Program-made: the position numbers and the translations under genes
Notes under the pieces: generated by a model
The model's database searches: none
Seen by the model: the letters and a program-made list of their open reading frames with translations, nothing else
Told to the model about the DNA's origin: nothing
NCBI GenBank assembly: GCA_009885085.1
Contig: VFLK01000033.1
Coordinates: 7,135-71,134, forward strand
Length of the DNA stretch: 64,000 bases
Origin: Minisyncoccota bacterium
GTDB lineage: Bacteria; Patescibacteriota; Microgenomatia; UBA1400; PJMF01
Reading direction: 5' to 3'
Shown: positions 3,137 to 60,090 of the stretch, piece by piece
Layout of the letters: every line of letters starts with the position of its first letter
Numbering within the stretch: the first letter of the stretch is position 1

Positions 3137-4240
3137 ATGTCTAACCTAGATCATGTATATGCCGTAATTCTAGCCGGTGGTGGCGGAACAAGACTTTGGC
3201 CAAAATCTAGAATTAATACTCCTAAGCAATTCTTAAAACTGCTTGGAAAAGAAACAATGATTCAGATCACAGCCTCAAGGATCACCAATCTTGTACCTTG
3301 GAAAAGAGTGATTGTTGTTACAAACGAACTCTATAAAGATGAAGTTCGTAAACAACTCCCTCAAGTCCCAAGCGAAAACATCATTTCAGAACCAACCAAA
3401 AGAGACACTGCTTTGGCAATGCTCGTTGGTACACTTTATGCAAAATCTAAAGATCCAGAAGCAGTGATTATTAACTTAGCCTCAGATCATGTTGTGCCCA
3501 ACCATGTTGAATTTACCAGAGTAATGAAGCTGGCAGCAAAAACTGCTCAAGAGAATGACTATTTAGTTACGGTGGGAATCTCTCCAACTAGACCTTCCAC
3601 CGGGTTTGGATACATAAGAACTGGTAATGACTTAGAGAAATTAGATCGAGGTCTTTCTCTATTTAAAGTCGATAGTTTTACCGAAAAACCAAATGAAGCA
3701 ACCGCAAGAGGTTTTATATCTACCGGAAAATACTACTGGAATGCAAATATGTATGTTTGGTCGGCAACAGTTTTGGAAAGAGCTTTTCAAACTCACATGC
3801 ATACTATGTACGAGTTAACCAGTAAACTTTCTAGTTTAAACTCAAAAGATTTTCACGCTTCACTTAAAGCAATTTACGATCAAGCTGAATCAATATCTAT
3901 TGATTACGCAATTTCTGAAAAGGCCACCAACCTTGTATTAATTCCTGGAGATTTTGGCTGGGATGATGTTGGCGACTGGAAAGTTGTCTACGATCTAGAA
4001 AAAAAGGATTCTAAAGGCAATGTTGTAATCGGAGACCATGAGCCAAAGAATGTGATCATGGTAGATTCCAATAACAACTTGATTCATACAAACGGAAGAC
4101 TGATTAGTTTGGTGGGTGTAGAAGACCTGATAATTATTGACACAGAAGAAATTCTGATGATAATGCCTAAATCAAAGAGTCAAGACATTAAAAAAATAGT
4201 TAATAAATTAGAGGAAGAGAAAAAAGAGGAATATTTATAA
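3137..4240 (+). CDS. mannose-1-phosphate guanylyltransferase-like sugar nucleotidyltransferase
   Basis: AVILAGGGGTRLWPKSR...PKQF nucleotidyltransferase signature, ManC/CpsB-like length. Confidence 0.8.
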   Translation: MSNLDHVYAVILAGGGGTRLWPKSRINTPKQFLKLLGKETMIQITASRITNLVPWKRVIVVTNELYKDEVRKQLPQVPSENIISEPTKRDTALAMLVGTLYAKSKDPEAVIINLASDHVVPNHVEFTRVMKLAAKTAQENDYLVTVGISPTRPSTGFGYIRTGNDLEKLDRGLSLFKVDSFTEKPNEATARGFISTGKYYWNANMYVWSATVLERAFQTHMHTMYELTSKLSSLNSKDFHASLKAIYDQAESISIDYAISEKATNLVLIPGDFGWDDVGDWKVVYDLEKKDSKGNVVIGDHEPKNVIMVDSNNNLIHTNGRLISLVGVEDLIIIDTEEILMIMPKSKSQDIKKIVNKLEEEKKEEYL

Positions 4241-4242
4241 TC

Positions 4243-4863
4243 ATGAATTACGCCCAACAAAAAAGAATACTTGATGTAGCGTCAGCCTTAGTTCTTTGCA
4301 TAGTATTTTTACCAATTTGGTTTATTGTTCCTATCATGATTTATCTTGATTCAGGATTGCCAATAATTTTTAAACATAAAAGACTCGGACTTAATGGCAA
4401 AGAGTTTTATCTATATAAATTTAGATCCATGGTTCCAGATGCCGATGACATTCTCCATAAACGTAATAAAAGAATGTTAGCTAGATTTAGAAAAGGAGAC
4501 TGGAAAATTAAAAATGATCCAAGAATTACTAAACTTGGTAAAGCATTAAGGTCATTAACAATTGATGAATTTCCACAAATTTATAACGTACTTAAAGGTG
4601 AGATGAGTATGATTGGACCAAGAGCTTATGTGGAAAAAGAGTTTAATGAGCAAACCAAAAAATACCCAGAAACTAAAAAATATAAGGCTATTATTCTTTC
4701 TGTTAAACCAGGAATTACTGGTCCTTGGCAAACTTCAGGTAGAAATGAAATTCCTTTTAATATTCGTGCAAAAATGGATGCTGACTATGCAAGCAAGAAA
4801 TCAATTCGTCGAGATTTGCTCATAATGTTAAAAACACCCAAGGCAATGATTTCAAAGTGGTAA
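4243..4863 (+). CDS. bacterial sugar transferase (undecaprenyl-phosphate sugar-1-phosphate transferase, WbaP/PglC C-terminal-domain type)
   Basis: single N-terminal TM helix, KFRSM and PQIYNVLKGEMSMIGPRA motifs. Confidence 0.85.
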   Translation: MNYAQQKRILDVASALVLCIVFLPIWFIVPIMIYLDSGLPIIFKHKRLGLNGKEFYLYKFRSMVPDADDILHKRNKRMLARFRKGDWKIKNDPRITKLGKALRSLTIDEFPQIYNVLKGEMSMIGPRAYVEKEFNEQTKKYPETKKYKAIILSVKPGITGPWQTSGRNEIPFNIRAKMDADYASKKSIRRDLLIMLKTPKAMISKW

Positions 4864-7566: not shown

Positions 7567-7639
7567 TTGAATATAAAAACCTGACACAAGGTGAATCGCT
7601 CTAGCGAGAGAAGGTAGCCTGGGCTATAATAACTTTCAT

Positions 7640-10814: not shown

Positions 10815-11082
10815 AATGTGCGTAAGTATACCTCAAGGATAGAACTTTAACCACTAAAAATATACAGAAATTCGCACAATGATCCTACTTGCTGGACATT
10901 AGTAACTGTGATAATTTAATGAAGCTGTGGAATGTAGTGAAAATCTACAACTGTGCCGCAACGGTGTATTTTGATATTTTTCAAAATAAGTCCGATCTTC
11001 AGCAAATATTTTATTGACGAGCATCAAAATTGTGATTATTTATTTAGCCTTTGTACTAATAAAATAAACACCCGAAAAAATG

Positions 11083-11108: not shown

Positions 11109-11195
11109 CTTCAGTAATCTAGCGGCACAGAATTTCCAGAAGCAAAAGCAATTGAACAGATTGCCTGTAAAAATATATTCTTGGAAAGGAATAGT

Positions 11196-11915
11196 ATGCT
11201 AGAAAAAACTGAATCACTCGATATGTATCACCAGTTTAATGGAGAAAATCCGCTAGGATCTTTCAAAATTGAAGATGTTCTTCAAATAACTGGATTAAAT
11301 ACTTTTCTTGATGAAATGAATGCTTTATTTAAAGAATCAAGTCCTTTTCTCAATCAAGTGTCCCTTTTGTTTACTCACTATAGAAGACAGCTTGCATCCT
11401 TGCGTATTGAGATGCTAAATAATTTAGCCGCAAAACAATTACTTCAAGATTTTGGAGTAGCGGGCATTGGAATAGATGATAAGGGAAATGCTGACTCTCT
11501 GATCACTCAACAAATATTATCAGTCCATGGTAAATTAGTTGTTAATTTAGAAACAACTTCCATAGAACTTCCAAGTTCTGTGGCTAAATTCACCACGTTC
11601 ATTGTCGCTGTTCAAAAAGAAATAATTCGGATTTTAGTAGATTCACAAAAATCTATTTCTGCTGAAATAGAAGCAAAAGAAACTGAAGAAACAAAAGTAG
11701 ATAATCATCTATCTAGTCATACAAATACACACCATCGTTTGGCATCTGAATCGATCCAAGTTTCAAGACAAGCTCAAGAAAAAAGAAAAAAAGCAACACA
11801 TATTGAAAAAGAAAGTGCACACAATCAATTAAAAACTTTATTTTCTTATCTAAAAAACATCTTTAATCCAGTTGCTATGGGAACTCGAGAATTCATGTCA
11901 ATGACTGCGCAATAG
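11196..11915 (+). CDS. hypothetical protein
   Basis: ORF 11181..11915; the second ATG at 11196 has a GGAAAGGA Shine-Dalgarno-like sequence; no family recognised. Confidence 0.45.
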   Translation: MLEKTESLDMYHQFNGENPLGSFKIEDVLQITGLNTFLDEMNALFKESSPFLNQVSLLFTHYRRQLASLRIEMLNNLAAKQLLQDFGVAGIGIDDKGNADSLITQQILSVHGKLVVNLETTSIELPSSVAKFTTFIVAVQKEIIRILVDSQKSISAEIEAKETEETKVDNHLSSHTNTHHRLASESIQVSRQAQEKRKKATHIEKESAHNQLKTLFSYLKNIFNPVAMGTREFMSMTAQ

Positions 11916-29517: not shown

Positions 29518-31893
29518 ATGATATTAAATGATGCTAGAAATGTTGACCATCAATGGAATAGAAATTCAACAAAACAAGAAATTCTTGCTTCTGAAAAAGA
29601 TGATGCAGATATTATTGGCAATATATTGGAATTTACAGCAGATACAAAAATATTTTTAGCACACCTACGATATTCAAACGAAGAAGTTCTAAAAAAAATT
29701 GGCATCAAAACAAAAGACCAAATAGATGCTTGGACATCCTTCGTATATTCATCTATAGAATTATTTCACGGCCTAGCTACAAAAGGAAAAGGTGAATGGG
29801 GTATGACTTGGGGTTTAACAGCAAAAGATCCCAAAGATATTGAAAAGCTTCAAAATAAAGTCATAAACAGTATTGTTTATGAAACACTCAGAGATGTACA
29901 GCCTGGAAAAGAAAAACCAGCTATAAAATATGAGTACAAAACTAATAAAGATGGTAGCTTAAAGTCGGTTGAACCACTAGCTGACTCAAGACGTGACCCC
30001 ATTACCTTTCGCGTACTCAGAGGTGGGCCACCCCCACTAGATTTTATAGATATAAACATATCGATGAGTACAATTATTTCCTCAAATGCAAATACTGATA
30101 ACAAAGATATTAATCCGTTGGACATAATTCCCTGGAAAGGAATTATGGATGGCAACGAAAAAATACTTGAAATGCTTAAAACAATAACCGGTATCAAAAT
30201 TGGACCACCAAGATATCTTAAGGACTGGCATGAAGAGCCAGACGACGATGAAAATCATAAAACTGACAGAACAGGAGAATTTTTCAAACCTGATGTTTTG
30301 ATTGGCAAAGGTGATAAAAATTGGCGACTAACAAAATTTGGCAATGACGCAAGAATCATGATGTTGGCTGAGTATGGTGATAAGTTTGGAAGATCTGCTG
30401 CTATTAATGTTTCATTTGCTCAGCATGCCTCTGGAGATGGATTGGAGTTAATGGGCAGCGAATCAGCAAAAAAAGAAGACATGAAATCTGCCTATGACCA
30501 GACTCTTAAAAAACCAGAAATAAGAGAACTTTTAGACGAAAATGGCAAAGCAGAATCAGTCGAGGCACTTGAGTTAATTGGAGAATTTGAACCTCAAGTA
30601 TTGCCTTTCCATACACTCTTGTCTGCTAAATTTGGTCGGTTTGGGTTGGGTGACATGAGACAACAAATTGAGAGAAGAATTGCGGCAACCCAGTTTCAAA
30701 GTAAAGTCATGGCAAAATTTGGAGCAAGAGTTGATGCTATAAGAATACAAGTTGGAATTAAGTTAGACCCTGAGTTGACGGAGGCTTCCAGAAAAACAGT
30801 CAAACAAATCAAGGGAAAAGGTGTTGAAAAAATGAATGGATCTCTTTTAAATGCTATGGCACATCATCTGCATGCGGGCGAATCATGCGGCGTAATGATA
30901 CAACCAATAGAAGGTAGAACAACTCTCGTAACTGTGGGCAATAAGGTTTGGGAAAAATGGGAAAATGTCTGTGATAAATTTTCAAATGATGATCAAATAG
31001 ATAGGTTAAGAGCCTATCCAAGTATGAAAAATGGCATAAAAGTTATTAGGGATAGATTAAAAAACCTTCAATGGCTTCCAGATAGCAACGAACTTGATGA
31101 CTCAGAAACAAGCATGTGGCTAAATGAAAATATTCCAATAATAAAAAATATATTTTCTTTTGACAATGAACTTAGAAATCAGATTGAGCCGATCAGAAAT
31201 TCTGTAACAAACAGTGTAAATGAAATAACTGATGTTGATTCATTTTTAAAGAAAGTAAGAAATAAAAGCGGCGGTGTAGTCACAAATAAAAATGCCGAGT
31301 GGGACCTGAGTAGCATGACAAACAAAATGAACTTAATTATTACAAAAGCAAAAATGAATCCTAATACTCCTTTTTCAAAACTTATAATCCAAATTGATGA
31401 GACATTTAAAAATAGCAGTCAAAATGAATATCAAACAGAAGAATTTAGTAATAAAATTAAATCTCTAAACATCGCTGGAAAATTTTATCCGCTTAGAACT
31501 TTTTCACTAAATGTAAACCATGATCCAACAAGATCAAAAATAAATACAATTTTTCTTGCATGTGACCAACAAAAACTAGATGGTTTTGACTGGATACTTT
31601 CGGACACCGAACACAATGAAGAAGGATTTATCAAATCATTTGAAGCTGAGTTTGAAGACACTGCTAGTAGTATGGGAAACGTAGGTGATTTCTTTATTGA
31701 AGCTGGCAAAGACCCAAACCTAACTGCTCCTGCAATAAGTAGAGATTTGGGATTTCTAGCAGTCGTAGAAGGATGGGCAGTAAATCACACACCTAACACT
31801 GCTGCTGCAGCAAGGTCACAAATTTTTCGATCAGGGTTGCTTGAACCAGCAGACTCTGTTGGAACCGCCGTAGTCTTTCAAACAGCAACCTAA
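29518..31893 (+). CDS. large hypothetical protein (791 aa), first gene of the tRNA-Gly-adjacent operon; no TM, no P-loop, no recognisable domain
   Basis: long uninterrupted ORF; HHLHAGESCG His/Cys cluster; ends at a single TAA that is in frame with the next ORF. Confidence 0.6.
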   Translation: MILNDARNVDHQWNRNSTKQEILASEKDDADIIGNILEFTADTKIFLAHLRYSNEEVLKKIGIKTKDQIDAWTSFVYSSIELFHGLATKGKGEWGMTWGLTAKDPKDIEKLQNKVINSIVYETLRDVQPGKEKPAIKYEYKTNKDGSLKSVEPLADSRRDPITFRVLRGGPPPLDFIDINISMSTIISSNANTDNKDINPLDIIPWKGIMDGNEKILEMLKTITGIKIGPPRYLKDWHEEPDDDENHKTDRTGEFFKPDVLIGKGDKNWRLTKFGNDARIMMLAEYGDKFGRSAAINVSFAQHASGDGLELMGSESAKKEDMKSAYDQTLKKPEIRELLDENGKAESVEALELIGEFEPQVLPFHTLLSAKFGRFGLGDMRQQIERRIAATQFQSKVMAKFGARVDAIRIQVGIKLDPELTEASRKTVKQIKGKGVEKMNGSLLNAMAHHLHAGESCGVMIQPIEGRTTLVTVGNKVWEKWENVCDKFSNDDQIDRLRAYPSMKNGIKVIRDRLKNLQWLPDSNELDDSETSMWLNENIPIIKNIFSFDNELRNQIEPIRNSVTNSVNEITDVDSFLKKVRNKSGGVVTNKNAEWDLSSMTNKMNLIITKAKMNPNTPFSKLIIQIDETFKNSSQNEYQTEEFSNKIKSLNIAGKFYPLRTFSLNVNHDPTRSKINTIFLACDQQKLDGFDWILSDTEHNEEGFIKSFEAEFEDTASSMGNVGDFFIEAGKDPNLTAPAISRDLGFLAVVEGWAVNHTPNTAAAARSQIFRSGLLEPADSVGTAVVFQTAT

Positions 31894-31899
31894 GCTGGA

Positions 31900-32613
31900 G
31901 TGCCAGGACTTGGTGCAATGGGAAACAGCATGGCCATCGCTGACACCAGAGAAACATCTGGACTCAAGGAATCACTTGATCATCCTGCAAAAATGATGGA
32001 TGTATTATTGCCATGGTTGAGAGGAAATGAAAATGTAAAAACTGCTTTTAAAAATTTTCTTGGAGTAAACTTAGACATAGGTAACGAAAAAACAAAAGAA
32101 GAAAAGAATAATCGCAAAAAATTATCACTCTTTCAAAAAATGCTTTCTGAAGATGATTTTGCCTGTTTTAACGACAATAACTCAGAAAAAATTGTTAGAA
32201 GAAATGATTTAAGAATCTGGGGACCAAAAAGAGATGAAGAAAAAAGATTAACAGCTAGTGATTTAAGCGTCAGATATAAACATCATCTAGAGGGAGAACT
32301 TTTATTTGATATGTGGAATCAATTTATAGATGCAGTTGATCAAAATAAAGTAAAAATTGATGATAGAACAAAAGAATCTATCAAAAAATTTAACGGAACG
32401 GGTTTTAAAGAAATGTGGGGAGCAATGATAAAGTTTAGAGCTTTAGACATGCAACATCAAACCGCAAAAGCAAATCTGATCATGAGACTGTGGTTAAATC
32501 CCCATGATCACGATGAGTCTTCGTGGGAAATTTATGTAAGACAATTTAACACTGCAAGAGAATCCTATCGAAACATGGAAAAGGTATTTTCAGTTTTTGG
32601 GAAAGAATACTAA
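31900..32613 (+). CDS. hypothetical protein (237 aa), in the same frame as the upstream ORF and separated from it by one TAA plus two codons; possible C-terminal extension or split gene
   Basis: GTG 31900 (or ATG 31918) start; no convincing spaced SD; frame identity with 29518..31893 computed from coordinates. Confidence 0.5.
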   Translation: MPGLGAMGNSMAIADTRETSGLKESLDHPAKMMDVLLPWLRGNENVKTAFKNFLGVNLDIGNEKTKEEKNNRKKLSLFQKMLSEDDFACFNDNNSEKIVRRNDLRIWGPKRDEEKRLTASDLSVRYKHHLEGELLFDMWNQFIDAVDQNKVKIDDRTKESIKKFNGTGFKEMWGAMIKFRALDMQHQTAKANLIMRLWLNPHDHDESSWEIYVRQFNTARESYRNMEKVFSVFGKEY

Positions 32614-32615
32614 TC

Positions 32616-34739
32616 ATGATTTACGAACCTGATGGCTCATTATCTAACCTAACACTTCCAAGAGATGAAGTGTTAATTGCAATCTATGAAAAACAGAATG
32701 AAGCTTTATTCCTAATTCTTGGAGCTGACAAACCACCAATATTCACTAAAGAATTTGCCGCCAAAGAGTTAGCAATTCAACCACAAGAAACTCCAGGATT
32801 ACTAAAAAGAATTTGGTTTGAAAAGGATGAAAAAAATAAGACGTATAAATTGTGCGGTGTAGGGAAGTGGGGAGGTCAAAATTCAAAACTTGCAGAAATA
32901 TCTATAAATCTTGATATGGAAGAAGCAAATCGACTAATGAGTCTAGCTTCTAATAATAGAATTGAAGAGATAAACTCCTTATCAAATAATTCTGAATTAG
33001 CAAAAACCCCAAAAATTGAAAATTACAGAAAAATGCTAGAAGAAGCTGAAAAAATATTTTTTGCAATGCTAACAGATTATTCTGGAAAAATTGTAGTTGA
33101 TGAAACTGAAAGTGAAAAAAGTAAAAAAAGCTCTGAAGTAAAAAAGGATACGGCGCCTTTAGACACAATTGATGTTCAAATCATGCCAACTGAGAAAACT
33201 GATAAAAAAGATCTACTAAACAAATTAGCTGAAACTATGGAGCTTCGGGTGTTATTTTTAAATAGAAATAACAACGAAATTTCTTACGCTGATATATCCG
33301 AAGTTATAAAATTATTAGTAAATCCAGAAAATGTTGAAAAATATTTTAATAATTTAGGAATTGGCTCAGATGTCATTAGTGAAAAGGAACATTTTGAAAA
33401 TGAACTAAAAAAAATGACGAATGAGTATGCCAGCGGAAAAGTTAAAAACTTGCAAACAATTTTGGAAACAAGAAAACAAAATCAGCTCCAAACAATTTCG
33501 CAGATGATTAATACAATTGTTGAACAAATACCAATGCTTGCTAAAAGTCCAAAAACTTTTGACATTATAAAAAATGCTATGGATCTTGATAATGACTTAG
33601 CCGAGCAACTTGTCAAAGAATATAACGAAACTTCCACAATATCATTTGAAACTGTTTTCGATAATCTCGAAGGTGCAACTGAGTTATTTGAAGCAAAAGT
33701 ATTAGAAATAATTCTAGCAGATTATGAGGATCAAATTAATTCGCTAAAAATTGAATTTAATAAAATAATAGCTTCGCAGACAATCTCAAGGTGTATTGAG
33801 TGGGCCCAACCTCCTTTTTCTACTCCAGTTGATTCAAATATTCAACTCAACGTAGATCCTACTTTATTAGATCAAGCAATTAAATTTTCGTTTAGTCCAG
33901 AAAAGTGGGATATTAATTTAGTTACTTATGCACTAAATAACACTAGACATTCAGATGGCGAAATTGGAAGTAAAATACCAGGCAATAATATTTCAGGACT
34001 ACGAAAAACTAGAGAGAAATTAGATGACTATTTAAAACAGATGGTTGAAAAAAGTAATACGGAAAGTTTTGGTGCTCAATTTAAAGCCTGGATGAAAAAA
34101 TACAGCGATGGAAATATTAACCCAGATTATTACTTATTAAGTTTTACCTCGGTTTTAAAAACACCTTGGAAAAAACTTGAAGAAGAAATCTGGAAAAAAA
34201 CAATGGCCGAGTGGTTAAAATCAAATAAAGAAAAACTAAAAGCCATTGTTACTAACGAACTTAGTAAAAAAGGTGGCGCAATAGATGAAATCAAAAGTCA
34301 TGATAAAGCGATAGCAAAATCAACTGAAATATGGTTTAAATGGCGTCATGAATTGAAAAAAATATTACAAGAAAAATCACTAAATGCTCAAACGGATGTT
34401 GATATTCTAGTTGACTGGTCGCTAAAACAACAATACCCTGACGATAGAATGAAAACAAAAACAAATGAAGTTGCAATTGATTGGGATAAGGACAAAGAAC
34501 TGATAGAAAAACTTAAAGTTGATCATCTAAGAATTTGGAATATAATTTTTCACACCAGAAATATTGCCAAAAGTCTCAACTTAGGTATAGACACAAATGT
34601 TGTTCAATGGCTAAAAAGAATTTCTTTTCAAGCAAAAATGAGCAATCATTATGGATCAGATACTTTTCTCACAAGCGAAGGTGTGGAGTGGAGAGAAAAT
34701 ATTGAGGCCAAAGCCAAAGAAACAACTTCACAAAAATGA
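32616..34739 (+). CDS. large hypothetical protein (707 aa), K/E-rich and probably mostly alpha-helical, no TM or P-loop
   Basis: starts 2 nt after the upstream stop; stop overlaps the next start (ATGA). Confidence 0.6.
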   Translation: MIYEPDGSLSNLTLPRDEVLIAIYEKQNEALFLILGADKPPIFTKEFAAKELAIQPQETPGLLKRIWFEKDEKNKTYKLCGVGKWGGQNSKLAEISINLDMEEANRLMSLASNNRIEEINSLSNNSELAKTPKIENYRKMLEEAEKIFFAMLTDYSGKIVVDETESEKSKKSSEVKKDTAPLDTIDVQIMPTEKTDKKDLLNKLAETMELRVLFLNRNNNEISYADISEVIKLLVNPENVEKYFNNLGIGSDVISEKEHFENELKKMTNEYASGKVKNLQTILETRKQNQLQTISQMINTIVEQIPMLAKSPKTFDIIKNAMDLDNDLAEQLVKEYNETSTISFETVFDNLEGATELFEAKVLEIILADYEDQINSLKIEFNKIIASQTISRCIEWAQPPFSTPVDSNIQLNVDPTLLDQAIKFSFSPEKWDINLVTYALNNTRHSDGEIGSKIPGNNISGLRKTREKLDDYLKQMVEKSNTESFGAQFKAWMKKYSDGNINPDYYLLSFTSVLKTPWKKLEEEIWKKTMAEWLKSNKEKLKAIVTNELSKKGGAIDEIKSHDKAIAKSTEIWFKWRHELKKILQEKSLNAQTDVDILVDWSLKQQYPDDRMKTKTNEVAIDWDKDKELIEKLKVDHLRIWNIIFHTRNIAKSLNLGIDTNVVQWLKRISFQAKMSNHYGSDTFLTSEGVEWRENIEAKAKETTSQK

Positions 34740-37207
34740 TAAGTCGAGAAACAAGCAAACCACAATCCCGCAACGATTTTCTATCGATTCCTGGTCTTGA
34801 TGAAAGAGCACAAGCAACAATTTTTGCCAAAGAAATAGAATTATTGCCTCCAAGAATGCGAAATTATATTGCTATTTTGATGCGAGAAAATAGCAGAGCT
34901 GGCATATTTAAAAAAAGACAATCTGAAGAAAATCTTACAGCACTACTTGAGCCAGCTAGAGAACTGATTAGTTTGTTACATATAACTGAAAATATGCCAG
35001 AGGTTGTGGAAAACCTCCATATCAGGTGGGCAAAAATTATTGAAACTCAACCATATAATGAAAAAACAAGACGAAGAGATATAAGAGAAATATGGTTAGA
35101 TATAATTGAAAAAGGTGTTAAAACCGCGCAAACAACATTTATCTGCAGAGAAATTAGAGACCGAATGATCTCCAGAAGCTATCTCGATAAACCCAGTCAG
35201 GCAATTTCCAAATTTGATACAGAAATACTAAATAAATTAGCTGCCTGGTGCTATGAAGCCCAAGGAGATAAATATAAAGTTGAAAATGGTTACCAGCTAT
35301 TTAAAGAAGATTTGGGAAAAATACTAGAAATTTCACAAGATACTGGCATATCGGCAGAAAATTATTTTAATCACAGAGACAAATCCATAATGCCATGGTT
35401 TTTTATGCTGTTGGTTGGTGATAATTCTGAATTTAGTAAATTCATGTATGAAAAAATAGGCAATAAAGAATCAATGAGACCACACATAAACCTTGGAGTG
35501 ACAGGTATTGATATAGCATTAGGCGAGAATGGACTTGAAGAAAGACCAGACGATCTTTACAAACGTCTTGCTGATCTTTTATATCCTGACGGCTATCCAG
35601 AAGGAATTAAAGGAAAAATTAAAAATTCAGAACAAAGAAGTATTTTTATTGAGAAAGGCAGCGAACTTAAGTGTAAAGTAGCAGACCCAGGTTCAGACTC
35701 ATATGAAAGAGCTTATATCAAAAAGGAAATTGAAATCCTAAAAACTGATTTCCAAGATGATGGCATAGAAATGCACGACAATTTTGGCTATGAAAAACCA
35801 GCTCTTTTTATGTCCTTAGATATTAATTTAATGTCTGATCTCATGGGAATAACTGGTAGCTGGACCAAGTGGCTTGAAGCAATGGCCCATATTAGAGAAC
35901 AAGAAACAACTTGCAACATACCAATTTCTCCAGATGAAGCATTAACTTTGATGAACTGGGATTTAGAGTCTGATTTAAAAAATAAAATCCTCACAAAAGC
36001 AATGCTGATTGCTCATTTCAATAGAGCTGCTGGCTTAGAACAACATCACGGCTATGGAGGAAATAAAAATATTTATAATGATCAATTTTGGGCTAGACTA
36101 GCTTACAATTTATCATTGCCAGAAAATAAAGATGGAGCTCACACTTTGACTCCAGAAATATTAGCTAAAATTTCAGAATCTTCTCAGGACGAAGAAGAAA
36201 TGGCGCAAAAACTTGGATTCTTACTCTCTGGCAGAGTTACTACAATTAATCTCAGTGTGATGGGTGCAAATAGAACTGGAAAAGATGAACAAGCAAGTAC
36301 GATGGAAAGTTCTTCGTATGCAGTCACAGAATCTTGCAGAGCTTATGGCCTTTATGAGCAAGGAAAAGATCCTAAGCCAACAGTTGCTTCTGGACATTCC
36401 ATGGGTGCTCAAATTTTAGAAAGAGCTTTGTTACTTTTGCCTCAAAGTGTAAGAAATTGGGTTGACTTTCTTTCCGTAACTGGAGTCTATACAAGTGAAA
36501 TGAGTGCAATGTCTTTTCTTAAAAAAGGAATGAATAAACTTCACCCATTATTAATTAAACTTGTAACAAATAAGAACATTACTAAACAACAGTTGGGGAA
36601 ATTTATGTCAGGCGCTGGAGAAATCTTACCAATTAAAAAAATAATACTAAAAGGCGCCACCTATTCTCAAGCCAGAACACCAATGGATTTCAAGATTGGA
36701 TTACCAATTGCAGCGGCGCATGAAATAAGTTTGAATTCAGCTCCAGAATATTTATTAGGACAAATGGGAGCAATTGATAACAGCAAAGATAGACATTCAT
36801 TTGATGAACTTGCGTCAACAATATCTACATTTGGTAAAGACATGGTAACAAGAACGGTTGGACGAATTGATTCTGTCCTACATCCTGGAAAATCAATGAG
36901 GGCTCTAAAAAATTCAGACAAAAATATTAGAATAAAAGATTTTGATAAAATGACTATTCCTGAAATGGTTAAGTGGGTAAATGAGACTGAAGTGAATACT
37001 GGTGAACCAATTGAAGTTATCCTGGCTAAAGTTCCACACTACATACAAACGACTGAACTAGGTAGATGGTTGATTAGATTGCAACACATGAAAAAACTAA
37101 AATTACATACTTATGGATATAGAAAAAAAGGTGAAAATTCAGAAGCAACTCAAAATATCAGCAATACAACAAGATCAATTACCGAATTATTTATGGGGAG
37201 AAATTAA
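34736..37207 (+). CDS. large hypothetical protein (823 aa) with a GHSMG (GxSxG nucleophile-elbow-like) motif; candidate serine hydrolase or acyltransferase domain
   Basis: ATGA overlap with the upstream gene; GHSMG encoded at 36392..36406 in frame. Confidence 0.55.
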   Translation: MISRETSKPQSRNDFLSIPGLDERAQATIFAKEIELLPPRMRNYIAILMRENSRAGIFKKRQSEENLTALLEPARELISLLHITENMPEVVENLHIRWAKIIETQPYNEKTRRRDIREIWLDIIEKGVKTAQTTFICREIRDRMISRSYLDKPSQAISKFDTEILNKLAAWCYEAQGDKYKVENGYQLFKEDLGKILEISQDTGISAENYFNHRDKSIMPWFFMLLVGDNSEFSKFMYEKIGNKESMRPHINLGVTGIDIALGENGLEERPDDLYKRLADLLYPDGYPEGIKGKIKNSEQRSIFIEKGSELKCKVADPGSDSYERAYIKKEIEILKTDFQDDGIEMHDNFGYEKPALFMSLDINLMSDLMGITGSWTKWLEAMAHIREQETTCNIPISPDEALTLMNWDLESDLKNKILTKAMLIAHFNRAAGLEQHHGYGGNKNIYNDQFWARLAYNLSLPENKDGAHTLTPEILAKISESSQDEEEMAQKLGFLLSGRVTTINLSVMGANRTGKDEQASTMESSSYAVTESCRAYGLYEQGKDPKPTVASGHSMGAQILERALLLLPQSVRNWVDFLSVTGVYTSEMSAMSFLKKGMNKLHPLLIKLVTNKNITKQQLGKFMSGAGEILPIKKIILKGATYSQARTPMDFKIGLPIAAAHEISLNSAPEYLLGQMGAIDNSKDRHSFDELASTISTFGKDMVTRTVGRIDSVLHPGKSMRALKNSDKNIRIKDFDKMTIPEMVKWVNETEVNTGEPIEVILAKVPHYIQTTELGRWLIRLQHMKKLKLHTYGYRKKGENSEATQNISNTTRSITELFMGRN

Positions 37208-48057: not shown

Positions 48058-49270
48058 AAAAATTCTACTATGGACTTTTGTTGGACTACTAGCTCTGGGC
48101 CAGTTTCAAAGAATTGAGCTGGGAGGAAGTTTCACGGGAATCAACGTGTATTTTCACGATATTTTCATTTTTATCTGGCTGGTTGGTTTCGTATTAACAG
48201 AAAAAATTAATTTAAAATTTAGTAAAACTTCCTTAAAGAAAATTGTGTCTAGTTTTAAAATTGAATCAATTTTTATAGGAATTAGTATTACTGGAATTGC
48301 TCTTAATGTTCTAATCAATAATGATTGGGTTTCTCTATTGTATGTGCTTAGATTTGGCTCCTACATTTTGTTTTTTCTTTCATTAAGATATCTGGTAACA
48401 AAAAAACAGATAAGAGCATCAGACATTAGATTTAAGTTTTTTGGAGCTGGAGCCATTATTCTATTCCTGGGATTTTTGCAACTCATACTGATCAAAGACA
48501 CAAGATTTCTAGCAATACTCGGATGGGATGACCATTTCAATAGATTGATTAGCACCATTTTTGATCCTGGATTTACGGGACTTATTTTTGTAATTACTCT
48601 TATGTTTTTTTACTCACTTTCCAAAATCGATCATAACTTCAAAATTTTTGAAGGCAAACTTATCAATTCAATTATAAGTTTATGGTTTTTAGTAGGAATT
48701 GCATTAACATTTTCGAGAGCCTCATATCTGGCATTATTCGTTGCGTTATTATCACTGGGAGTTTTAAATAGGAAGGTAATTGCTACTTCAATTTTCAAAA
48801 TAGTATTTTTTGTGTTTATTATTTTATTGATACCCAAGCCCGGTGGTGAAGGCGTAGACTTATCTAGAACCTCAACAATTACCGCTAGAAGATCTGCTAT
48901 TGCGTATCAACTAGACTCTGTAACACCAAAAACTTTGCTTATTGGGAATGGCTTATTTTCAAAACAAAATAGATTGGCACAAAATGGACTGGCGCAAAAT
49001 AGATTAGAAACAAATGAGTTTATCCCAAGCCACTCCAGAATGCCTGACAATTTCTTAGTTAATCTTTTACTTTCCACAGGTCAAATTGGCACGGCCATAG
49101 CAATTTTTATTATATTTAAATGGGTAATTAAAATCTCTAAACAAGATCCTGAGCTCGGTTCAGCGATAATTGCTACATTAGTTCACGCGCAATTCAGTAA
49201 TTCAATATTTCAACCGTTTATATTGCTAATGTTATTAGGTGGAATTGCTAGTTTAAAATCTAAAGCTTAA
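48014..49270 (+). CDS. O-antigen ligase/polymerase-like polytopic membrane protein
   Basis: 418 aa, many TM helices with a large loop near the C-terminus, downstream of flippase and GT2. Confidence 0.5.
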   Translation: MKTIMWKLIMNPRLRKILLWTFVGLLALGQFQRIELGGSFTGINVYFHDIFIFIWLVGFVLTEKINLKFSKTSLKKIVSSFKIESIFIGISITGIALNVLINNDWVSLLYVLRFGSYILFFLSLRYLVTKKQIRASDIRFKFFGAGAIILFLGFLQLILIKDTRFLAILGWDDHFNRLISTIFDPGFTGLIFVITLMFFYSLSKIDHNFKIFEGKLINSIISLWFLVGIALTFSRASYLALFVALLSLGVLNRKVIATSIFKIVFFVFIILLIPKPGGEGVDLSRTSTITARRSAIAYQLDSVTPKTLLIGNGLFSKQNRLAQNGLAQNRLETNEFIPSHSRMPDNFLVNLLLSTGQIGTAIAIFIIFKWVIKISKQDPELGSAIIATLVHAQFSNSIFQPFILLMLLGGIASLKSKA

Positions 49271-49297
49271 AGTTATAAACTAGATCAATTTTTGTTG
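49228..49297. repeat. 70-bp direct repeat, copy 1 (3' end of the ligase-like gene plus downstream)
   Basis: about 64/70 identical to 49630..49699. Confidence 0.8.
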
Positions 49298-49361
49298 ACA
49301 AAGGTAATGATAACAGTGTATATTCAAGTCTTATTAAAATTATTTATTTAAGGAACTTAAT

Positions 49362-49631
49362 ATGCAAAAGGAAGTGGAAGAAGAAGACTATGAAACAAAA
49401 AGCGATAATGAAAAAAGAAAAGAAGAAAAAAAGAGCGATTTTTTTATTAAATTTGATGAACGGAATCCTAAAGAAAAACAAAGGGTTTCACAGCAAATAG
49501 GGTTTAAATTTAGTGGAAAAGAAAAAAGAAGAAAAGGGATAAGGTTAGATCAGAATATAGAAACACAGCAACTGAATGACGATGGCGACTCAATAGTTCA
49601 TGAAACCGATGATCATGATATCAGTTATTAA
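49362..49631 (+). CDS. small highly charged (K/E/D-rich) hypothetical protein lying between the 70-bp direct repeats
   Basis: 89-aa ORF; stop codon abuts repeat copy 2. Confidence 0.35.
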   Translation: MQKEVEEEDYETKSDNEKRKEEKKSDFFIKFDERNPKEKQRVSQQIGFKFSGKEKRRKGIRLDQNIETQQLNDDGDSIVHETDDHDISY

Positions 49632-50456: not shown

Positions 50457-50578
50457 CTATTGTTTGGAGTAAGGCAACTTGTGCTCTAAGATAGCTTCTT
50501 CAACTTGTACCCCCAGGCACCTTCTCTTGCTTTGAAATGGCCAAGGCCTGATGCTCTTGCTTTACAACTCGCCATGTT

Positions 50579-55021: not shown

Positions 55022-55030
55022 CAAAAAAAA

Positions 55031-55060: not shown

Positions 55061-55078
55061 GCGAGCTCGATCGGACTC
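55061..55078. repeat. 18-nt exact direct copy of the 3' end (acceptor and T-arm) of tRNA-Asp; att-like
   Basis: gcgagctcgatcggactc identical to 55274..55291. Confidence 0.75.
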
Positions 55079-55094: not shown

Positions 55095-55272
55095 TTTATC
55101 TACTGAAGGAAGCTCACAAGGTGAATTGCGAAGCAAGAGAAGGTGCCCTGGGGTACATGCACTAGGGTGACTCGCGCAGTGCGCTCGTGCGCCCGTCGCG
55201 AACAAGGCCACGACCACAATGTGAACTCAATATAAATAAAATAAACGCCTATCAGGCGTTTATTTTATTTAT
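55095..55272 (+). ncRNA. candidate small structured RNA or element remnant: GC-rich 190-bp segment between the tRNA-Asp partial copy and tRNA-Asp, ending in a bidirectional terminator
   Basis: G+C much higher than genome by eye; 5' part shares a roughly 45-nt motif with 7577..7621; terminator aaacgcct-atc-aggcgttt flanked by A and T runs at 55245..55272. Confidence 0.3.
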
Positions 55273-55274
55273 AG

Positions 55275-58680: not shown

Positions 58681-60090
58681 ATGAAAACCGATAACACAAA
58701 TAAAAATAAATATTCTTTGGTTTGTGGTCTAGAAATTCACGCCGAGCTTAAGACGAACTCTAAGTTGTTTTGTGGCTGTAAAAATGACCCATTTGGAGCT
58801 GAGAAACCAAATATCTACACTTGTCCAACTTGTTTAGGTATGCCCGGAGGTTCGCCAGTAGCTAACAAAAAAGCCATTGAGTGGACAATTAAAGTTGGTT
58901 TGGCACTTGGCTGTAAAATCAATTTATTCTCTAAATTTGATCGAAAGAATTATTTTTACCCAGATCTGCCAAAATCTTACCAAATTAGCCAATATGATCT
59001 GCCTTTTTGTTATGATGGTGTTTTAGAAACCTCTTTTGGTCCAGTGGGAATTACCAGAATTCATCTAGAAGAAGATACTGGGAAGCTATTACACAAAACT
59101 ATAGAGAAGGTGAATTCCGCAGGAAGAGAAGCTGGCCTGGGCCATGGAAAACAAGTAAGTCTAATAGATTTCAATAGAAGTAGCGTTCCTTTGATGGAAA
59201 TAGTGACTGAGCCAGATATACATAGCGCTGAACAGGCCAAAGAATACGCCAAAGAAATTCGAAAAATTCTTAAATATTTAGACGTCGCTGACTGCGACAT
59301 GGATCAAGGTGGTATGAGACTTGAGGCCAACATTTCTTTGGCTCCAATCGATAAAAATAATCCAAGTTCAAAACTTAGCAAACTCCCAAATTATAAAGTT
59401 GAAGTGAAAAACATCAACTCTTTTAGATTTATGGAACAAGCTATTGATTTTGAAATGGGCAGACAGGCTGAGATTCTTAATGATGGTAAAGTTCCTACTC
59501 AGGAAACTAGAGGTTGGAACTCTGTGAAATCCATTACTTTTTCGCAGCGTACTAAAGAAGATTCTGAAGACTACAGATACTTCCCAGATCCAGATCTACC
59601 ACCAATTAGATATTCACGTGAAAATATAGAGGCTATGAGAGCTGAGTTACCTGAGCTTCCAGCTCAGAAATCGAAGCGTTGGGCAACAGAATACGGTGTA
59701 GAAGAAAGATATTCCAAACAACTGATTTCACATGAAATATTTGCTAATTGGCTTGAAGAATCGTTCAAAATTTGTGTAAAAGAAAAAATTGAGCCAAATA
59801 AATTTGCTGGAGCATTAATCAATAAGAATATTAGAGTTTCACATGTAATGTCGTCAATTATCGCTGTTGAAGAATTCAAAAAATTGTCTCAAACTGATGA
59901 AGTAGCTGACGATGAAATTATCTCAGTTATCACAGATGTTATATCTCAAAATAATGATGCTGTTATTAAATTCAAATCAGGAGACACTAAAGTAATTGGA
60001 TTTTTCATTGGTCAAACTATGAGAAAACTTGGTAAGAAAGTTGATAACAAAAAACTTGGAGAGCTGCTACTAAATGAACTTAAAAAATAA
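58681..60090 (+). CDS. gatB: Asp/Glu-tRNA amidotransferase subunit B
   Basis: YSLVCGLEIHAELKTNSKLFCGC N-terminus. Confidence 0.9.
   Translation: MKTDNTNKNKYSLVCGLEIHAELKTNSKLFCGCKNDPFGAEKPNIYTCPTCLGMPGGSPVANKKAIEWTIKVGLALGCKINLFSKFDRKNYFYPDLPKSYQISQYDLPFCYDGVLETSFGPVGITRIHLEEDTGKLLHKTIEKVNSAGREAGLGHGKQVSLIDFNRSSVPLMEIVTEPDIHSAEQAKEYAKEIRKILKYLDVADCDMDQGGMRLEANISLAPIDKNNPSSKLSKLPNYKVEVKNINSFRFMEQAIDFEMGRQAEILNDGKVPTQETRGWNSVKSITFSQRTKEDSEDYRYFPDPDLPPIRYSRENIEAMRAELPELPAQKSKRWATEYGVEERYSKQLISHEIFANWLEESFKICVKEKIEPNKFAGALINKNIRVSHVMSSIIAVEEFKKLSQTDEVADDEIISVITDVISQNNDAVIKFKSGDTKVIGFFIGQTMRKLGKKVDNKKLGELLLNELKK

What the first reader, a model, noticed from the sequence alone, without database searches (positions are those of the whole stretch)
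7577..7621. About 45-nt structured motif shared between the glyQS leader and the tRNA-Asp-adjacent segment
cacaaggtgaa-[tcgc-tcta-gcga]-gagaaggtagcctgggcta (7577..7621) aligns with cacaaggtgaa-[ttgc-gaa-gcaa]-gagaaggtgccctggggta (55107..55150). The flanks are about 85% identical, but the central hairpin has different sequence with base-pairing preserved. Covariation of this kind is the usual signature of a functional RNA structure or protein-binding hairpin rather than chance. One copy sits 20 nt upstream of the glyQS start. The other lies inside the GC-rich att-associated segment.
Basis: seen in the sequence. Interest (0 to 1): 0.5.

Follow-up and report, generated by a model that had tools for sequence, protein, structure and literature searches.

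The report
39-base two-hairpin mobile repeat element
The shared motif is not a glyQS regulator: it is one copy of a 39-base, two-hairpin repeat that has inserted itself between genes and, in frame, inside essential genes, in bacteria from several phyla; no description of it was found.

Summary
The two sequences exist and match far beyond chance, but the coordinates are 8 nt too low. True positions are 7588-7627 and 55118-55156. The window holds two more copies. One lies in frame inside gatB (59107-59145). A decayed one lies 3' of tRNA-Thr (50504-50538, minus strand).

The unit is AAGGTGAAT-[hairpin, GNA loop]-AGAGRGG-[hairpin, CTGG loop]. A pattern scan of one genome per species gave at least 119 loci against about 3 expected by chance. 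They come from Patescibacteria, Campylobacterota, Zeta-, Gamma- and Betaproteobacteria, Nitrospirae and a Clostridiaceae isolate. In 100 distinct copies 98% of stem cells pair, with 124 compensatory changes against 25 in shuffles.

Filled and empty alleles in gatB and htpG show exact 39-nt insertions, with no target duplication and no terminal inverted repeats, usually 3' of GAC. About a quarter of copies sit in long ORFs, mostly in one frame (KVNxExRExxLGx), in DnaE, GyrA, HtpG, GatB and others. Head-to-tail arrays and decaying copies occur.

None of 80 related glyQS loci has it, so the leader idea fails.

Best model: a non-autonomous mobile element that behaves like a minimal IS200/IS605-type single-strand DNA transposon. 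The mobilising enzyme was not found.

The parts
7588..7627 (+). Copy 1, a 40-nt variant. It lies in the 73-nt spacer between the recO stop (7566) and the glyQS ATG (7640). Hairpin 1 is 7596-7599/7604-7607 (TCGC/GCGA) with loop TCTA. The linker is 7608-7614. Hairpin 2 is 7615-7618/7623-7626 (TAGC/GCTA) with loop CTGG. The 5' flank is CAC (7585-7587).
   Evidence: Sequence. Covariance model R1 scores 51.9 bits, E = 3e-15. All three forward frames contain a stop, so this copy is non-coding (read from the sequence). Absent upstream of glyQS in 80 relatives.
55118..55156 (+). Copy 2, the canonical 39 nt. It lies in the G+C-rich segment between tRNA-Asp and an 18-nt repeat of the tRNA's 3' end. Hairpin 1 is 55126-55129/55133-55136 (TTGC/GCAA) with loop GAA. 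Hairpin 2 is 55144-55147/55152-55155 (TGCC/GGTA) with loop CTGG.
   Evidence: Sequence. R1 scores 67.6 bits, E = 2.5e-20.
59107..59145 (+). Copy 3, 39 nt, in frame inside gatB (ORF 58681-60090). It encodes residues 143-155, KVNSAGREAGLGH. Hairpin 1 is 59115-59118/59122-59125 (TTCC/GGAA) with loop GCA. Hairpin 2 is 59133-59136/59141-59144 (TGGC/GCCA) with loop CTGG.
   Evidence: R1 scores 58.8 bits. The 13 residues are absent from all 27 aligned GatB relatives, including those 86-88% identical in that alignment. The empty allele L004 reads ATTGAT|GGAAAG, against ATAGAG[39 nt]GGAAAA here. In the AlphaFold model the insert falls in a low-confidence loop between two strands.
50504..50538 (-). Copy 4, truncated and decayed. 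It lacks the 5' AAGGTGAA, and one hairpin 1 pair is broken. It lies about 40 nt 3' of tRNA-Thr (50579-50654, minus strand). A still more degenerate half-unit may precede it at about 50540-50575.
   Evidence: R1 scores 25.2 bits, E = 1.5e-6, matching model positions 11-45.
55061..55078 (.). 18-nt direct repeat of the tRNA-Asp 3' end (GCGAGCTCGATCGGACTC, repeated at 55275-55292). It bounds the small cassette that holds copy 2. This is context, not part of the 39-nt element.
   Evidence: Repeat family D14.

Best explanation
The motif is a member of a widespread family of very small, non-autonomous mobile repeats that I could not find described.

Anatomy. The canonical unit is 39 nt: AAGGTGAAT, then hairpin 1 (4 bp, T-N-N-C / G-N'-N'-A, with a G-N-A triloop), then AGAGRGG, then hairpin 2 (4 bp, T-N-N-C / G-N'-N'-A, with a CTGG loop), then one variable base. 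The unpaired segments are nearly invariant. The two middle pairs of each stem vary freely but stay complementary.

Shown:
- Copies are dispersed, about 1 per 18 kb in this window.
- Insertions are precise 39-nt additions, with no target-site duplication and no terminal inverted repeats.
- Insertions occur preferentially just 3' of GAC-like triplets and before A-rich sequence.
- Copies form exact head-to-tail arrays.
- When inside genes they are almost always in the sense orientation and in the one frame that reads KVNxExRExxLGx.
- They decay after insertion.

Inferred:
- The gatB copy is translated as a 13-residue surface loop.
- The copy before glyQS is an insertion in the recO-glyQS spacer with no demonstrated regulatory role.
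- Mechanism (about 35-40% of my belief): the element moves as single-stranded DNA in the manner of IS200/IS605 'peel-and-paste' elements. Hairpin 1 would serve as the left-end hairpin and hairpin 2 as the right-end hairpin. GAC would be the transposon-adjacent motif, and the element's own 3' xAy the transposon-encoded motif. A transposase supplied in trans would act on them. The similarity between the element's 3' end and the target motif would explain the tandem arrays.

The enzyme was not identified.
For: Family and chance. One of them (L085) looks like a chance hit.

Structure. In 100 distinct copies 98.0% of stem cells pair, against 79.6% in shuffles. There are 124 cells changed on both sides against 25.3, with 0 of 500 shuffles reaching that value. 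Slid-partner controls pair at 37-56%. The varying positions were not constrained by the search pattern. Pair 10-18 is TA 54, GC 39, CG 10. Pair 28-37 is GC 35, GU 34, AU 21, CG 15.

Insertion events.
- gatB in the window against the empty allele L004 gives exactly 39 nt.
- There are independent gatB insertions in L001 (a few codons downstream in the same loop) and L003 (N-terminus), so 3 of 120 GatB homologs carry the element.
- In Sulfurimonas htpG, 106 of 120 homologs have the unextended length of 630 aa, and inserts occur at two sites 9 nt apart.

Target. In the 5' flank, position -2 is A in 80% and position -1 is C in 68% of copies, with GAC the commonest triplet. There is no duplication at the junctions.

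Arrays. Exact 39-nt head-to-tail units occur in L123, L091, L075 and L022.

Coding copies. 45 copies lie in long ORFs. 35 are sense and 10 antisense (p = 2e-4). Frame 0 holds 29 against 6 in frame 2 (p = 1e-4). Hosts include DnaE, HypF, HtpG, a class I aminoacyl-tRNA synthetase, GyrA, HsdR and HrpB. The 40-41-nt variants are never in ORFs (0 of 9 against 45 of 123, p = 0.02).

Decay. L208 has lost 9 nt and gained 5 substitutions, while its host protein is 95% identical to that of L014.

Single-strand DNA hint. The hairpin 1 loop is G (84%)-N-A (96%), closed by C-G. This is the 'mini-hairpin DNA' motif GCGNAGC reviewed in PMC13037366.

Fit to the IS200/IS605 scheme. The features are no target duplication, insertion downstream of a short adjacent motif, stem-loops at both ends, and gene-less minimal derivatives (PATEs), as described in PMC10055086. 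GC skew oriented to the element's top strand is positive in 67 of 106 loci (p = 0.008).
Against: - No cognate transposase was found. No gene family is shared by more than 10 of 119 flanking regions.
- No copy was seen with the two hairpins separated by a gene.
- The three Y1/RAYT-like genes that lie near copies have their own, different GTAG-type REPs or ends.
- None of the 46 of 60 window ORFs screened is a transposase, integrase or reverse transcriptase.
- The right-end geometry differs from IS608. Here the inferred 3' cleavage point lies within a base of the hairpin foot rather than about 10 nt beyond it (from my knowledge of IS608).
- Near-identical unpaired segments across phyla are unusual for selfish repeats and could mean a host-level function.
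- The hairpins are not more stable than shuffled sequence (z about 0, for both RNA and DNA parameters), so the case for structure rests on covariation alone.
- The orientation and GC-skew biases are confounded with gene orientation.
- Translation of the intragenic copies is inferred, not shown.
Confidence: 0.8

Rival explanations
1. One reading: a cis-regulatory RNA leader of glyQS (a riboswitch-like or protein-binding 5' UTR hairpin), or an independent small RNA shared with the tRNA-Asp locus.
For: Copy 1 lies 12 nt upstream of the glyQS start codon. Both hairpins covary. Both unpaired segments resemble Shine-Dalgarno sequences (AAGGUGA, GAGGGUG), which is read directly from the sequence.
Against: None of 80 related glyQS loci has the element. 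Several have a T-box-like leader instead. Rfam gives no hit even at E up to 10. The same unit lies inside coding sequences of unrelated genes and in tandem arrays. The purine-rich tract is 25 nt or more from the ATG, too far to act as a ribosome-binding site.
Confidence: 0.03
2. A host-beneficial structured module. In this view the copies are kept because the folded transcript or DNA does something useful, as proposed for REP sequences: protecting the mRNA 3' end, pausing or terminating transcription, or serving as a binding site for a conserved cellular protein. Mobility would only be the means of dispersal.
For: The unpaired segments are nearly invariant across phyla, and the stems are kept by compensatory change. 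Non-coding copies lie preferentially downstream of a co-oriented gene (45 to 19, p = 0.002). They are rare between divergent genes (5 cases, against 17 between convergent genes).
Against: Copies are absent at orthologous sites in close relatives. Copies decay quickly in place. A quarter of them lie inside ORFs, including essential genes. The hairpins are only 4 bp and are not unusually stable. The location bias is also what purifying selection on a selfish insert would produce.
Confidence: 0.15
3. RNA-mediated spread. The 39-nt unit would be transcribed, reverse-transcribed by a reverse transcriptase acting in trans, and integrated, which would explain the bias towards the sense orientation in transcribed regions.
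For: Sense orientation dominates in ORFs (35 to 10) and relative to upstream genes (45 to 19). Covarying hairpins with conserved single-stranded parts are typical of RNAs recognised by proteins.
Against: There is no reverse transcriptase in the window or enriched in the flanks. There is no A-tail and no target duplication. The G-N-A triloop closed by C-G is characteristically stabilising in DNA rather than RNA (PMC13037366). Patescibacteria genomes are poor in retroelements (my own knowledge).
Confidence: 0.1
4. The intragenic copies are removed from the mRNA (a mini-intron) or bypassed by the ribosome, so the host proteins are unchanged.
For: The copies sit in essential genes such as gatB, dnaE, gyrA and htpG.
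Against: All intragenic copies are 39 nt, free of stop codons, and overwhelmingly in one frame. The 40-41-nt variants are never in ORFs. That pattern is expected only if the insert is translated. An in-frame decayed copy of 30 nt persists in htpG. 39 nt is too small for any known self-splicing fold (my own knowledge).
Confidence: 0.03
5. A conserved peptide module: selection acts on the 13-residue sequence and the DNA similarity is secondary. Alternatively, an assembly or adapter artefact.
For: The peptide consensus KVNxExRExxLGx recurs in many proteins.
Against: About two thirds of copies are non-coding. Copy 1 has stops in all forward frames. The stem covariation changes the encoded residues (C, G, A, S, R, D and others) while preserving base pairing. 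Copies occur in cultured isolates and in complete genomes (Sulfurimonas sp. CS5, Methylovorus mays, Zhongshania marina, Mariprofundus sp. EBB-1) and differ from one another in sequence.
Confidence: 0.01

Closest known systems
IS200/IS605-family transposons and their gene-less derivatives (PATEs, palindrome-associated transposable elements)
   Same: No terminal inverted repeats and no target-site duplication. Insertion is orientation-specific and lies immediately 3' of a short conserved flanking motif (here GAC-like). A stem-loop lies near each end. The element's 3' end resembles the target motif. Protein-less minimal forms exist (features as described in PMC10055086; tested).
   Different: At 39-41 nt this unit is much smaller than described PATEs. 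No cognate TnpA and no full-length parent were found. The 3' cleavage point would lie within a base of the hairpin foot. The sequence family is shared across several phyla rather than being specific to one insertion sequence.
Rickettsia palindromic elements (RPEs)
   Same: Short palindromic repeats found both between genes and in frame inside protein-coding genes, including essential ones. They are translated as extra peptide segments tolerated in surface regions (my own knowledge of Ogata et al. 2000; RPEs also surfaced in the literature search).
   Different: RPEs are about 100-150 bp, confined to Rickettsia, and unrelated in sequence. This element is 39 nt, forms head-to-tail arrays, has a defined target motif, and occurs in at least five phyla.
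REP / REPIN elements mobilised by RAYT (TnpA-REP)
   Same: Hairpin repeats of 20-40 nt, with compensatory variation, mostly in 3' and convergent intergenic regions. They are thought to be acted on as single-stranded DNA by an HUH Y1 enzyme (PMC2817692, PMC8266576, PMC3116915). In Zhongshania marina the 39-mer is nested inside a REP array next to a RAYT gene.
   Different: There is no GTAG or CGTC tag. The unit has two different hairpins rather than one. It is not extragenic, since about a quarter of copies are in ORFs. Arrays are direct rather than inverted pairs. It is not species-specific. The nearby RAYT genes have their own, distinct REPs.
[quoted passage not shown]
   Same: Small, non-autonomous, dispersed elements that occasionally lie in frame inside genes (reviewed in PMC10969869).
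   Different: MITEs are defined by terminal inverted repeats and target-site duplications. Neither is present here.

Membership tests
IS200/IS605-derived non-autonomous element (PATE) | No terminal inverted repeats | tested here: met
   The 5' end AAGGTGAAT and the 3' end GGGNNAN are not complementary in 109 unique copies.
IS200/IS605-derived non-autonomous element (PATE) | Insertion without target-site duplication, with a scarless empty site | tested here: met
   gatB: ATTGAT|GGAAAG against ATAGAG[39]GGAAAA. htpG: GAC GAG|AAA AAA against GAA GAC[39]AAA AAA, plus a second site. Junction comparison shows no duplicated block.
IS200/IS605-derived non-autonomous element (PATE) | Insertion immediately 3' of a short conserved transposon-adjacent motif | tested here: met
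   In 111 single copies, flank position -3 is G in 51%, -2 is A in 80% and -1 is C in 68%. GAC is the commonest triplet. Exceptions exist, for example CTC at htpG site b.
IS200/IS605-derived non-autonomous element (PATE) | Stem-loops near both ends, recognised as folded single strands | tested here: met
   Two hairpins with 98% pairing and strong covariation. Hairpin 1 carries the DNA mini-hairpin C-GNA-G loop. That they fold as DNA rather than RNA is inferred.
IS200/IS605-derived non-autonomous element (PATE) | A cognate Y1 HUH transposase (TnpA) whose own element carries the same ends | tested here: not met
   No family is shared among the flanks. No split left-end/right-end copy was found. 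The Y1 genes in L019, L072 and L088 have different ends. Only 8-kb flanks could be examined, so whole genomes remain untested.
IS200/IS605-derived non-autonomous element (PATE) | Top strand preferentially on the lagging-strand template | tested here: inconclusive
   GC skew oriented to the top strand is positive in 67 of 106 loci, but this is confounded with gene orientation (35 to 10 and 45 to 19).
REP / REPIN (RAYT-associated) | Conserved GTAG (or CGTC) tetranucleotide at one end of a single palindrome | tested here: not met
   Neither strand begins or ends with GTAG or CGTC. The bottom strand most often starts with a GTAC- or GTGC-like tetranucleotide that is itself largely part of stem 2. 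Definition from PMC3733652 and PMC2817692.
REP / REPIN (RAYT-associated) | Extragenic location | tested here: not met
   45 of about 130 copies lie inside long ORFs.
MITE | Terminal inverted repeats and target-site duplication | tested here: not met
Rickettsia palindromic element (RPE) | Sequence family of 100-150 bp restricted to Rickettsia | tested here: not met
   The unit is 39 nt and the hosts are Patescibacteria, Campylobacterota, Proteobacteria and others. It resembles RPEs in behaviour only.
Known structured RNA families (Rfam 15), including T-box and riboswitches | A match to a curated covariance model | tested here: not met
   There is no hit over either copy at the gathering threshold or at E up to 10.
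Type III toxin-antitoxin RNA repeats (ToxI-like) | A tandem array of about 36-nt units directly upstream of a ToxN/AbiQ-type toxin gene | not tested
   Arrays exist (L091, L123, L075), but the neighbouring ORFs were not scanned for ToxN. The dispersed single and intragenic copies do not fit this family.

The most novel reading that the evidence does not exclude
This is an undescribed class of ultra-small (39-nt) mobile element. It would spread horizontally across bacterial phyla as a single-stranded DNA mini-circle or hairpin pair. It would be mobilised in trans by an enzyme not yet linked to it, whether an HUH transposase clade or a replication or priming enzyme that reads GNA mini-hairpins. 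It would be tolerated because it is stop-free and translated as a 13-residue loop, even in essential proteins. If so, it would be among the smallest sequence-defined transposable units known and a natural in-frame insertion tag.
Probability: 0.4. Interest if true: 0.8.

Novelty: new variant of a known kind. Interest (0 to 1): 0.65.

Why it matters
If the reading is right, a 39-nt sequence is moving within and between genomes of very different bacteria. These include the reduced genomes of Patescibacteria, which carry few mobile elements. It has repeatedly added 13 residues to core proteins such as GatB, DnaE, GyrA and HtpG.

- It defines a minimal substrate for a transposition machinery that is still to be identified.
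- It offers a marker of recent horizontal exchange among co-occurring vent, sediment and groundwater bacteria.
- It explains a class of lineage-specific insertions in protein alignments, and the spurious small 'hypothetical proteins' called over arrays.
- It warns annotators that this covarying motif is not a riboswitch or leader.

Practically, its precise, scarless, motif-directed in-frame insertion could inspire small insertion tags.

Tried and rejected
- Rfam, at the gathering threshold on the whole window and at E up to 10 on both loci: nothing over the motif.
- Thermodynamic stability with RNA and DNA parameters: not different from shuffles. The energy argument was therefore dropped in favour of covariation.
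- Exact look-up of the window's GlyRS in public assemblies: not on record.
- Linked-gene search by all-against-all BLAST of 1,969 ORFs from the flanks: the best family is present in only 10 of 119 loci and was not characterised.
- Search for an autonomous parent, with the two hairpin halves separated by a gene: only divergent full copies and half-unit duplications were found.
- RAYT/Y1 transposase link: three nearby genes (L019, L072, L088), each with its own different REPs or ends. Judged coincidental or due to repeat-rich regions.
- Phage or plasmid carriage: 2 hits in 2.9 million viral contigs, and no BLAST hit in PLSDB plasmids or INPHARED phages.
- Literature: searches by sequence strings, peptide strings and keywords found no description. 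PARCEL repeats (PMC2996958) have 25-residue units and are unrelated.
- Protein word search with a translated array: it returned only 12 small 'hypothetical proteins' called over arrays, so it was not a usable census.
- An archaeal host: the 'Woesearchaeota' contig L036 has almost no long ORFs under code 11 and is probably a misbinned code-25 bacterium, so no claim across domains is made.
- A thematic link to tRNA metabolism (glyQS, gatB, tRNA-Asp, tRNA-Thr): rejected, because hosts elsewhere are functionally unrelated.
Full report
OBSERVATION

Both quoted sequences are in the window, but 8 nt downstream of the stated coordinates. CACAAGGTGAA...GGGCTA is at 7585-7626 and CACAAGGTGAA...GGGGTA is at 55115-55155. 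The pattern CACAAGGTGAA-N8-16-GAGAAGGT matches exactly twice, against none in 100 dinucleotide-preserving shuffles.

The central hairpin differs by one compensated pair (TCGC/GCGA versus TTGC/GCAA).

Allowing mismatches revealed a third copy at 59104-59148. A regex and a covariance model revealed a truncated fourth copy at 50504-50538 on the minus strand, just 3' of tRNA-Thr. With all filters off, model R1 finds only these four in the 64 kb. Their scores are 67.6, 58.8, 51.9 and 25.2 bits, and the next hit scores 9 bits.

SURROUNDINGS IN THE WINDOW

The window is from a Patescibacteria (CPR) genome with 35% G+C. The best GatB relatives are labelled Patescibacteria or Pacebacteria.

Copy 1 (7588-7627, a 40-nt variant) lies in the 73-nt spacer between the recO stop (7566) and the ATG of monomeric-type GlyRS (7640). 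It has a stop in each forward frame.

Copy 2 (55118-55156) lies in a G+C-rich segment of about 196 bp. The segment is bounded by tRNA-Asp (55274-55347, minus strand) and an 18-nt repeat of that tRNA's 3' end (55061-55078).

Copy 3 (59107-59145) is in frame inside gatB, within the gatCAB operon, and encodes residues 143-155, KVNSAGREAGLGH.

Rfam has nothing over any copy.

THE gatB COPY IS A RECENT, EXACT 39-nt INSERTION

An alignment of 28 GatB proteins shows the 13 residues only in the window's protein. They are absent from relatives that are 86-88% identical in that alignment. At the DNA level, the empty allele L004 reads ...ATT GAT|GGA AAG..., and the window reads ...ATA GAG[39 nt]GGA AAA....

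Two other GatB genes carry independent insertions of the same element. L001 (KVNGEAREGALGY) has it a few codons downstream in the same loop. L003 (KVNAEGRESTRGY) has it at the N-terminus. Their stems differ (TGGC/GCCA and TGCC/GGCA). In all, 3 of 120 GatB homologs carry it.

In an AlphaFold2 model (mean pLDDT 75), the insert lies in a low-confidence coil between strands 135-141 and 157-163. This is consistent with a tolerated surface loop.

A LARGE, CROSS-PHYLUM FAMILY

I scanned one genome for each of 185,579 species with AAGGTGAATNNCN{3,5}GNNAGAGANNNTNNCNNNGG. This pattern has 20 specified bases, and about 3.3 hits are expected by chance.

Hosts:
- many Patescibacteria classes (Saccharibacteria, Peribacteria, Parcubacteria, Gracilibacteria, Paceibacterota and others);
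- Campylobacterota (Sulfurimonas, Sulfuricurvum, Sulfurovum);
- Zetaproteobacteria (Mariprofundus, Ghiorsea);
- Gammaproteobacteria (Cycloclasticus, Thiogranum, Zhongshania, Methylomarinum and others);
- Betaproteobacteria (Methylovorus mays, Gallionellaceae);
- a Nitrospirae MAG;
- a cultured Clostridiaceae isolate.

Several hosts are cultured isolates or complete genomes, so this is not an assembly artefact.

One locus (L085) looks like the expected chance hit. The single 'archaeal' contig (L036) has almost no long ORFs under code 11 and is probably a misbinned code-25 bacterium. I therefore claim no archaeal host.

The element is almost absent from viral contigs (2 of 2.9 million). It is absent from PLSDB plasmids and GenBank phages.

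ANATOMY AND COVARIATION

The canonical unit is 39 nt: AAGGTGAAT, hairpin 1 (positions 9-12 with 16-19), AGAGRGG, hairpin 2 (positions 27-30 with 35-38), and one variable base. The hairpin 1 loop is G (84%)-N-A (96%). The hairpin 2 loop is C-T-G-G.

At positions the search pattern left free (109 unique copies):
- pair 10-18 is TA 54, GC 39, CG 10 (106 of 109 paired);
- pair 11-17 is GC 77, CG 19, AT 5, TA 2;
- pair 28-37 is GC 35, GT 34, AT 21, CG 15;
- pair 29-36 is CG 86, GC 17.

On 100 distinct copies the named structure gives 98.0% paired cells, against 79.6% in shuffles. There are 124 double-sided changes against 25.3, and no shuffle out of 500 reaches that value. Sliding the partners gives 37-56% pairing.

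Neither RNA nor DNA folding energies exceed those of shuffled sequence. The evidence for structure is therefore evolutionary, not thermodynamic.

A G-N-A triloop closed by C-G is the 'mini-hairpin DNA' motif, GCGNAGC. It is unusually stable in DNA and is used by proteins that read single-stranded DNA, such as primases and N4 vRNAP (PMC13037366). This is a hint, not proof, that the relevant form is single-stranded DNA.

BEHAVIOUR AS A MOBILE ELEMENT

(i) Precise insertion. In htpG of Sulfurimonas, 106 of 120 homologs have the unextended length of 630 aa. The 13-residue insert occurs at two sites 9 nt apart. The empty allele reads GAT GAC GAG|AAA AAA. The filled allele reads GAT GAA GAC|[39]|AAA AAA. 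The second site reads AAT CTC|[39]|GAT GAA. No target duplication and no terminal inverted repeats are seen.

(ii) Target preference. In 111 single copies the 5' flank is G (51%), A (80%), C (68%). The 3' flank starts with A (51%). The element's own 3' end (xAy) resembles the target.

(iii) Arrays. Exact head-to-tail 39-nt arrays occur in L123, L091, L075 and L022. Duplications of either half also occur. Arrays are expected if a new copy can insert after the target-like 3' end of an existing copy.

(iv) Decay. L208 has lost 9 nt and gained 5 substitutions, although its HtpG is 95% identical to that of L014, which carries an intact copy. P0124 has a substitution in the conserved AAT.

(v) No positional conservation. 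None of 80 related glyQS loci (318 kb) has the element. Loci with the same recO-glyQS arrangement (L127, L154) simply have a shorter spacer. Others have a T-box-like leader.

COPIES INSIDE GENES

About 45 of 130 copies lie in long ORFs. 35 are sense and 10 antisense (p = 2e-4). Of the sense copies, 29 are in the frame reading KVNxExRExxLGx, against 6 in the other open frame (p = 1e-4). The third frame has a TGA.

Hosts include DnaE, HypF, HtpG (twice), a class I aminoacyl-tRNA synthetase, a multicopper oxidase, HsdR, GyrA, a restriction-modification methylase and HrpB.

Variants of 40-41 nt are never in ORFs (0 of 9 against 45 of 123, p = 0.02). An in-frame decayed remnant persists in htpG. 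These facts argue that the inserts are translated, not removed from the mRNA.

Stem covariation changes the encoded residues. Selection is therefore on the nucleic acid, not on the peptide.

Non-coding copies lie preferentially downstream of a co-oriented gene (45 to 19). They show no bias relative to the downstream gene (37 to 37). GC skew oriented to the top strand is positive in 67 of 106 loci. These biases fit insertion specific to one replication strand or selection linked to transcription. I could not separate the two.

MECHANISM (INFERRED)

Five features match IS200/IS605 'peel-and-paste' transposition and its gene-less PATE derivatives, as described in PMC10055086:
- no terminal inverted repeats;
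- no target duplication;
- orientation-specific insertion 3' of a short motif;
- a stem-loop near each end;
- an element 3' end that mimics the target.

I therefore propose the following. Hairpin 1 and hairpin 2 are the left and right recognition hairpins. GAC is the transposon-adjacent motif. A Y1 HUH-type enzyme acts in trans on single-stranded DNA.

The weak point is that no such enzyme was linked to the element:
- flanking genes share no family in more than 10 of 119 loci;
- no copy has its halves separated by a gene;
- the Y1/RAYT genes near copies in L019, L072 and L088 have their own GTAG-type REPs or different ends;
- none of the 46 of 60 window ORFs screened is a transposase, integrase or reverse transcriptase.

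In Zhongshania marina the 39-mer is nested inside REP units of a BIME array beside a RAYT gene and has been co-amplified with them. This shows co-residence, not cognate mobilisation.

I give about 0.8 to 'dispersed, non-autonomous mobile repeat family'. Within that, I give about 0.35-0.4 to the single-strand DNA, IS200/IS605-like mechanism.

COMPARISON WITH KNOWN KINDS

The element works like a PATE and behaves in genes like a Rickettsia palindromic element.

It fails the defining tests for three families:
- REP/REPIN: no GTAG or CGTC tag, not extragenic, and direct rather than inverted arrays;
- MITEs: no terminal inverted repeats and no target duplication;
- any Rfam family: no match.

For PATE membership, four defining features are met, one (a cognate TnpA) is not met in the sequence available, and one (strand bias) is inconclusive.

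Literature searches by sequence, by peptide and by keyword found no description. The searchable library is incomplete, so prior description cannot be excluded.

VERDICT

The 'glyQS leader or small RNA' reading is wrong.

The motif is a copy of a 39-nt two-hairpin mobile repeat that also sits in frame in gatB in this window. The family is spread across at least five bacterial phyla, often inside essential genes.

I rate it a new variant of a known kind (small non-autonomous hairpin transposable elements), with interest 0.65. The cross-phylum conservation, the extreme smallness and the unidentified mobilising enzyme are the parts worth pursuing.

Noticed in passing
window 55022-55347; L063 1930-2377: Downstream of tRNA-Asp (minus strand) lie a hairpin, a G+C-rich segment of about 160 nt, an 18-nt repeat of the tRNA's 3' end and a terminator. 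A related Patescibacteria genome (L063) has two such mini-cassettes stacked after tRNA-Glu, each ending in a 17-nt repeat of that tRNA's 3' end. They look like att-flanked remnants or tiny integrative cassettes. No integrase is nearby.
   Followed up: partly
L124, L126, L130, L138, L155 (about 130 nt upstream of glyQS): Relatives' glyQS genes are preceded by a T-box-like leader (AGGGTGGAACCACC... plus a terminator). The window's glyQS has none and follows recO directly.
   Followed up: no
window 10911-11009 (+): AdoCbl-II (cobalamin) riboswitch hit above the Rfam gathering score (41.7 bits against a threshold of 36.5), upstream of ORF 11181-11915, which has no Pfam match.
   Followed up: no
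window 49227-49298 and 49629-49700: A 72-nt direct repeat (92% identical) brackets the small ORF 49362-49631 (89 aa, no Pfam hit). This could be a duplication or the footprint of an insertion.
   Followed up: no
window 29518-37207: Four consecutive ORFs, three of them large (791, 237, 707 and 823 aa), have no Pfam match at E up to 1e-6.
   Followed up: no
window 54141-55021: A DUF6922 / AbiEii nucleotidyltransferase pair (a type IV toxin-antitoxin-like system) lies immediately upstream of copy 2. In L091 a small two-gene cassette, which I did not annotate, sits between two arrays of the element.
   Followed up: no
L019 2800-5000 (Zhongshania marina): Five copies of the 39-mer within 2 kb, each nested inside a GTAG-type REP unit of a BIME array that flanks a RAYT gene (3812-4261). 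The 39-mer appears to have been co-amplified with the REP.
   Followed up: partly
L011, L012, L035, L036, L051, L107, L115: In several phyla the 39-mer sits inside a larger conserved context, CCCCTC..GGGAC[39-mer]..GGGGTGAGGG. This may be a longer composite hairpin element.
   Followed up: no
L097, L118, L123 (3' of the copies): Patescibacteria copies and arrays are followed by a conserved TACTCTTGTGGTGC. In L123 a terminator-like hairpin follows that. Some arrays may be transcribed as a discrete small RNA.
   Followed up: no
L036 (labelled Woesearchaeota MAG): The contig has only two ORFs of 120 aa or more in 8 kb under code 11, with apparent in-frame TGA codons. It is probably a misbinned code-25 bacterium (Gracilibacteria or Absconditabacteria).
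   Followed up: partly
P0241-P0252: Tandem arrays of the element are annotated in public data as small 'hypothetical proteins' of 45-86 aa with no Pfam domain, for example Mariprofundus Q9M17_09810.
   Followed up: no
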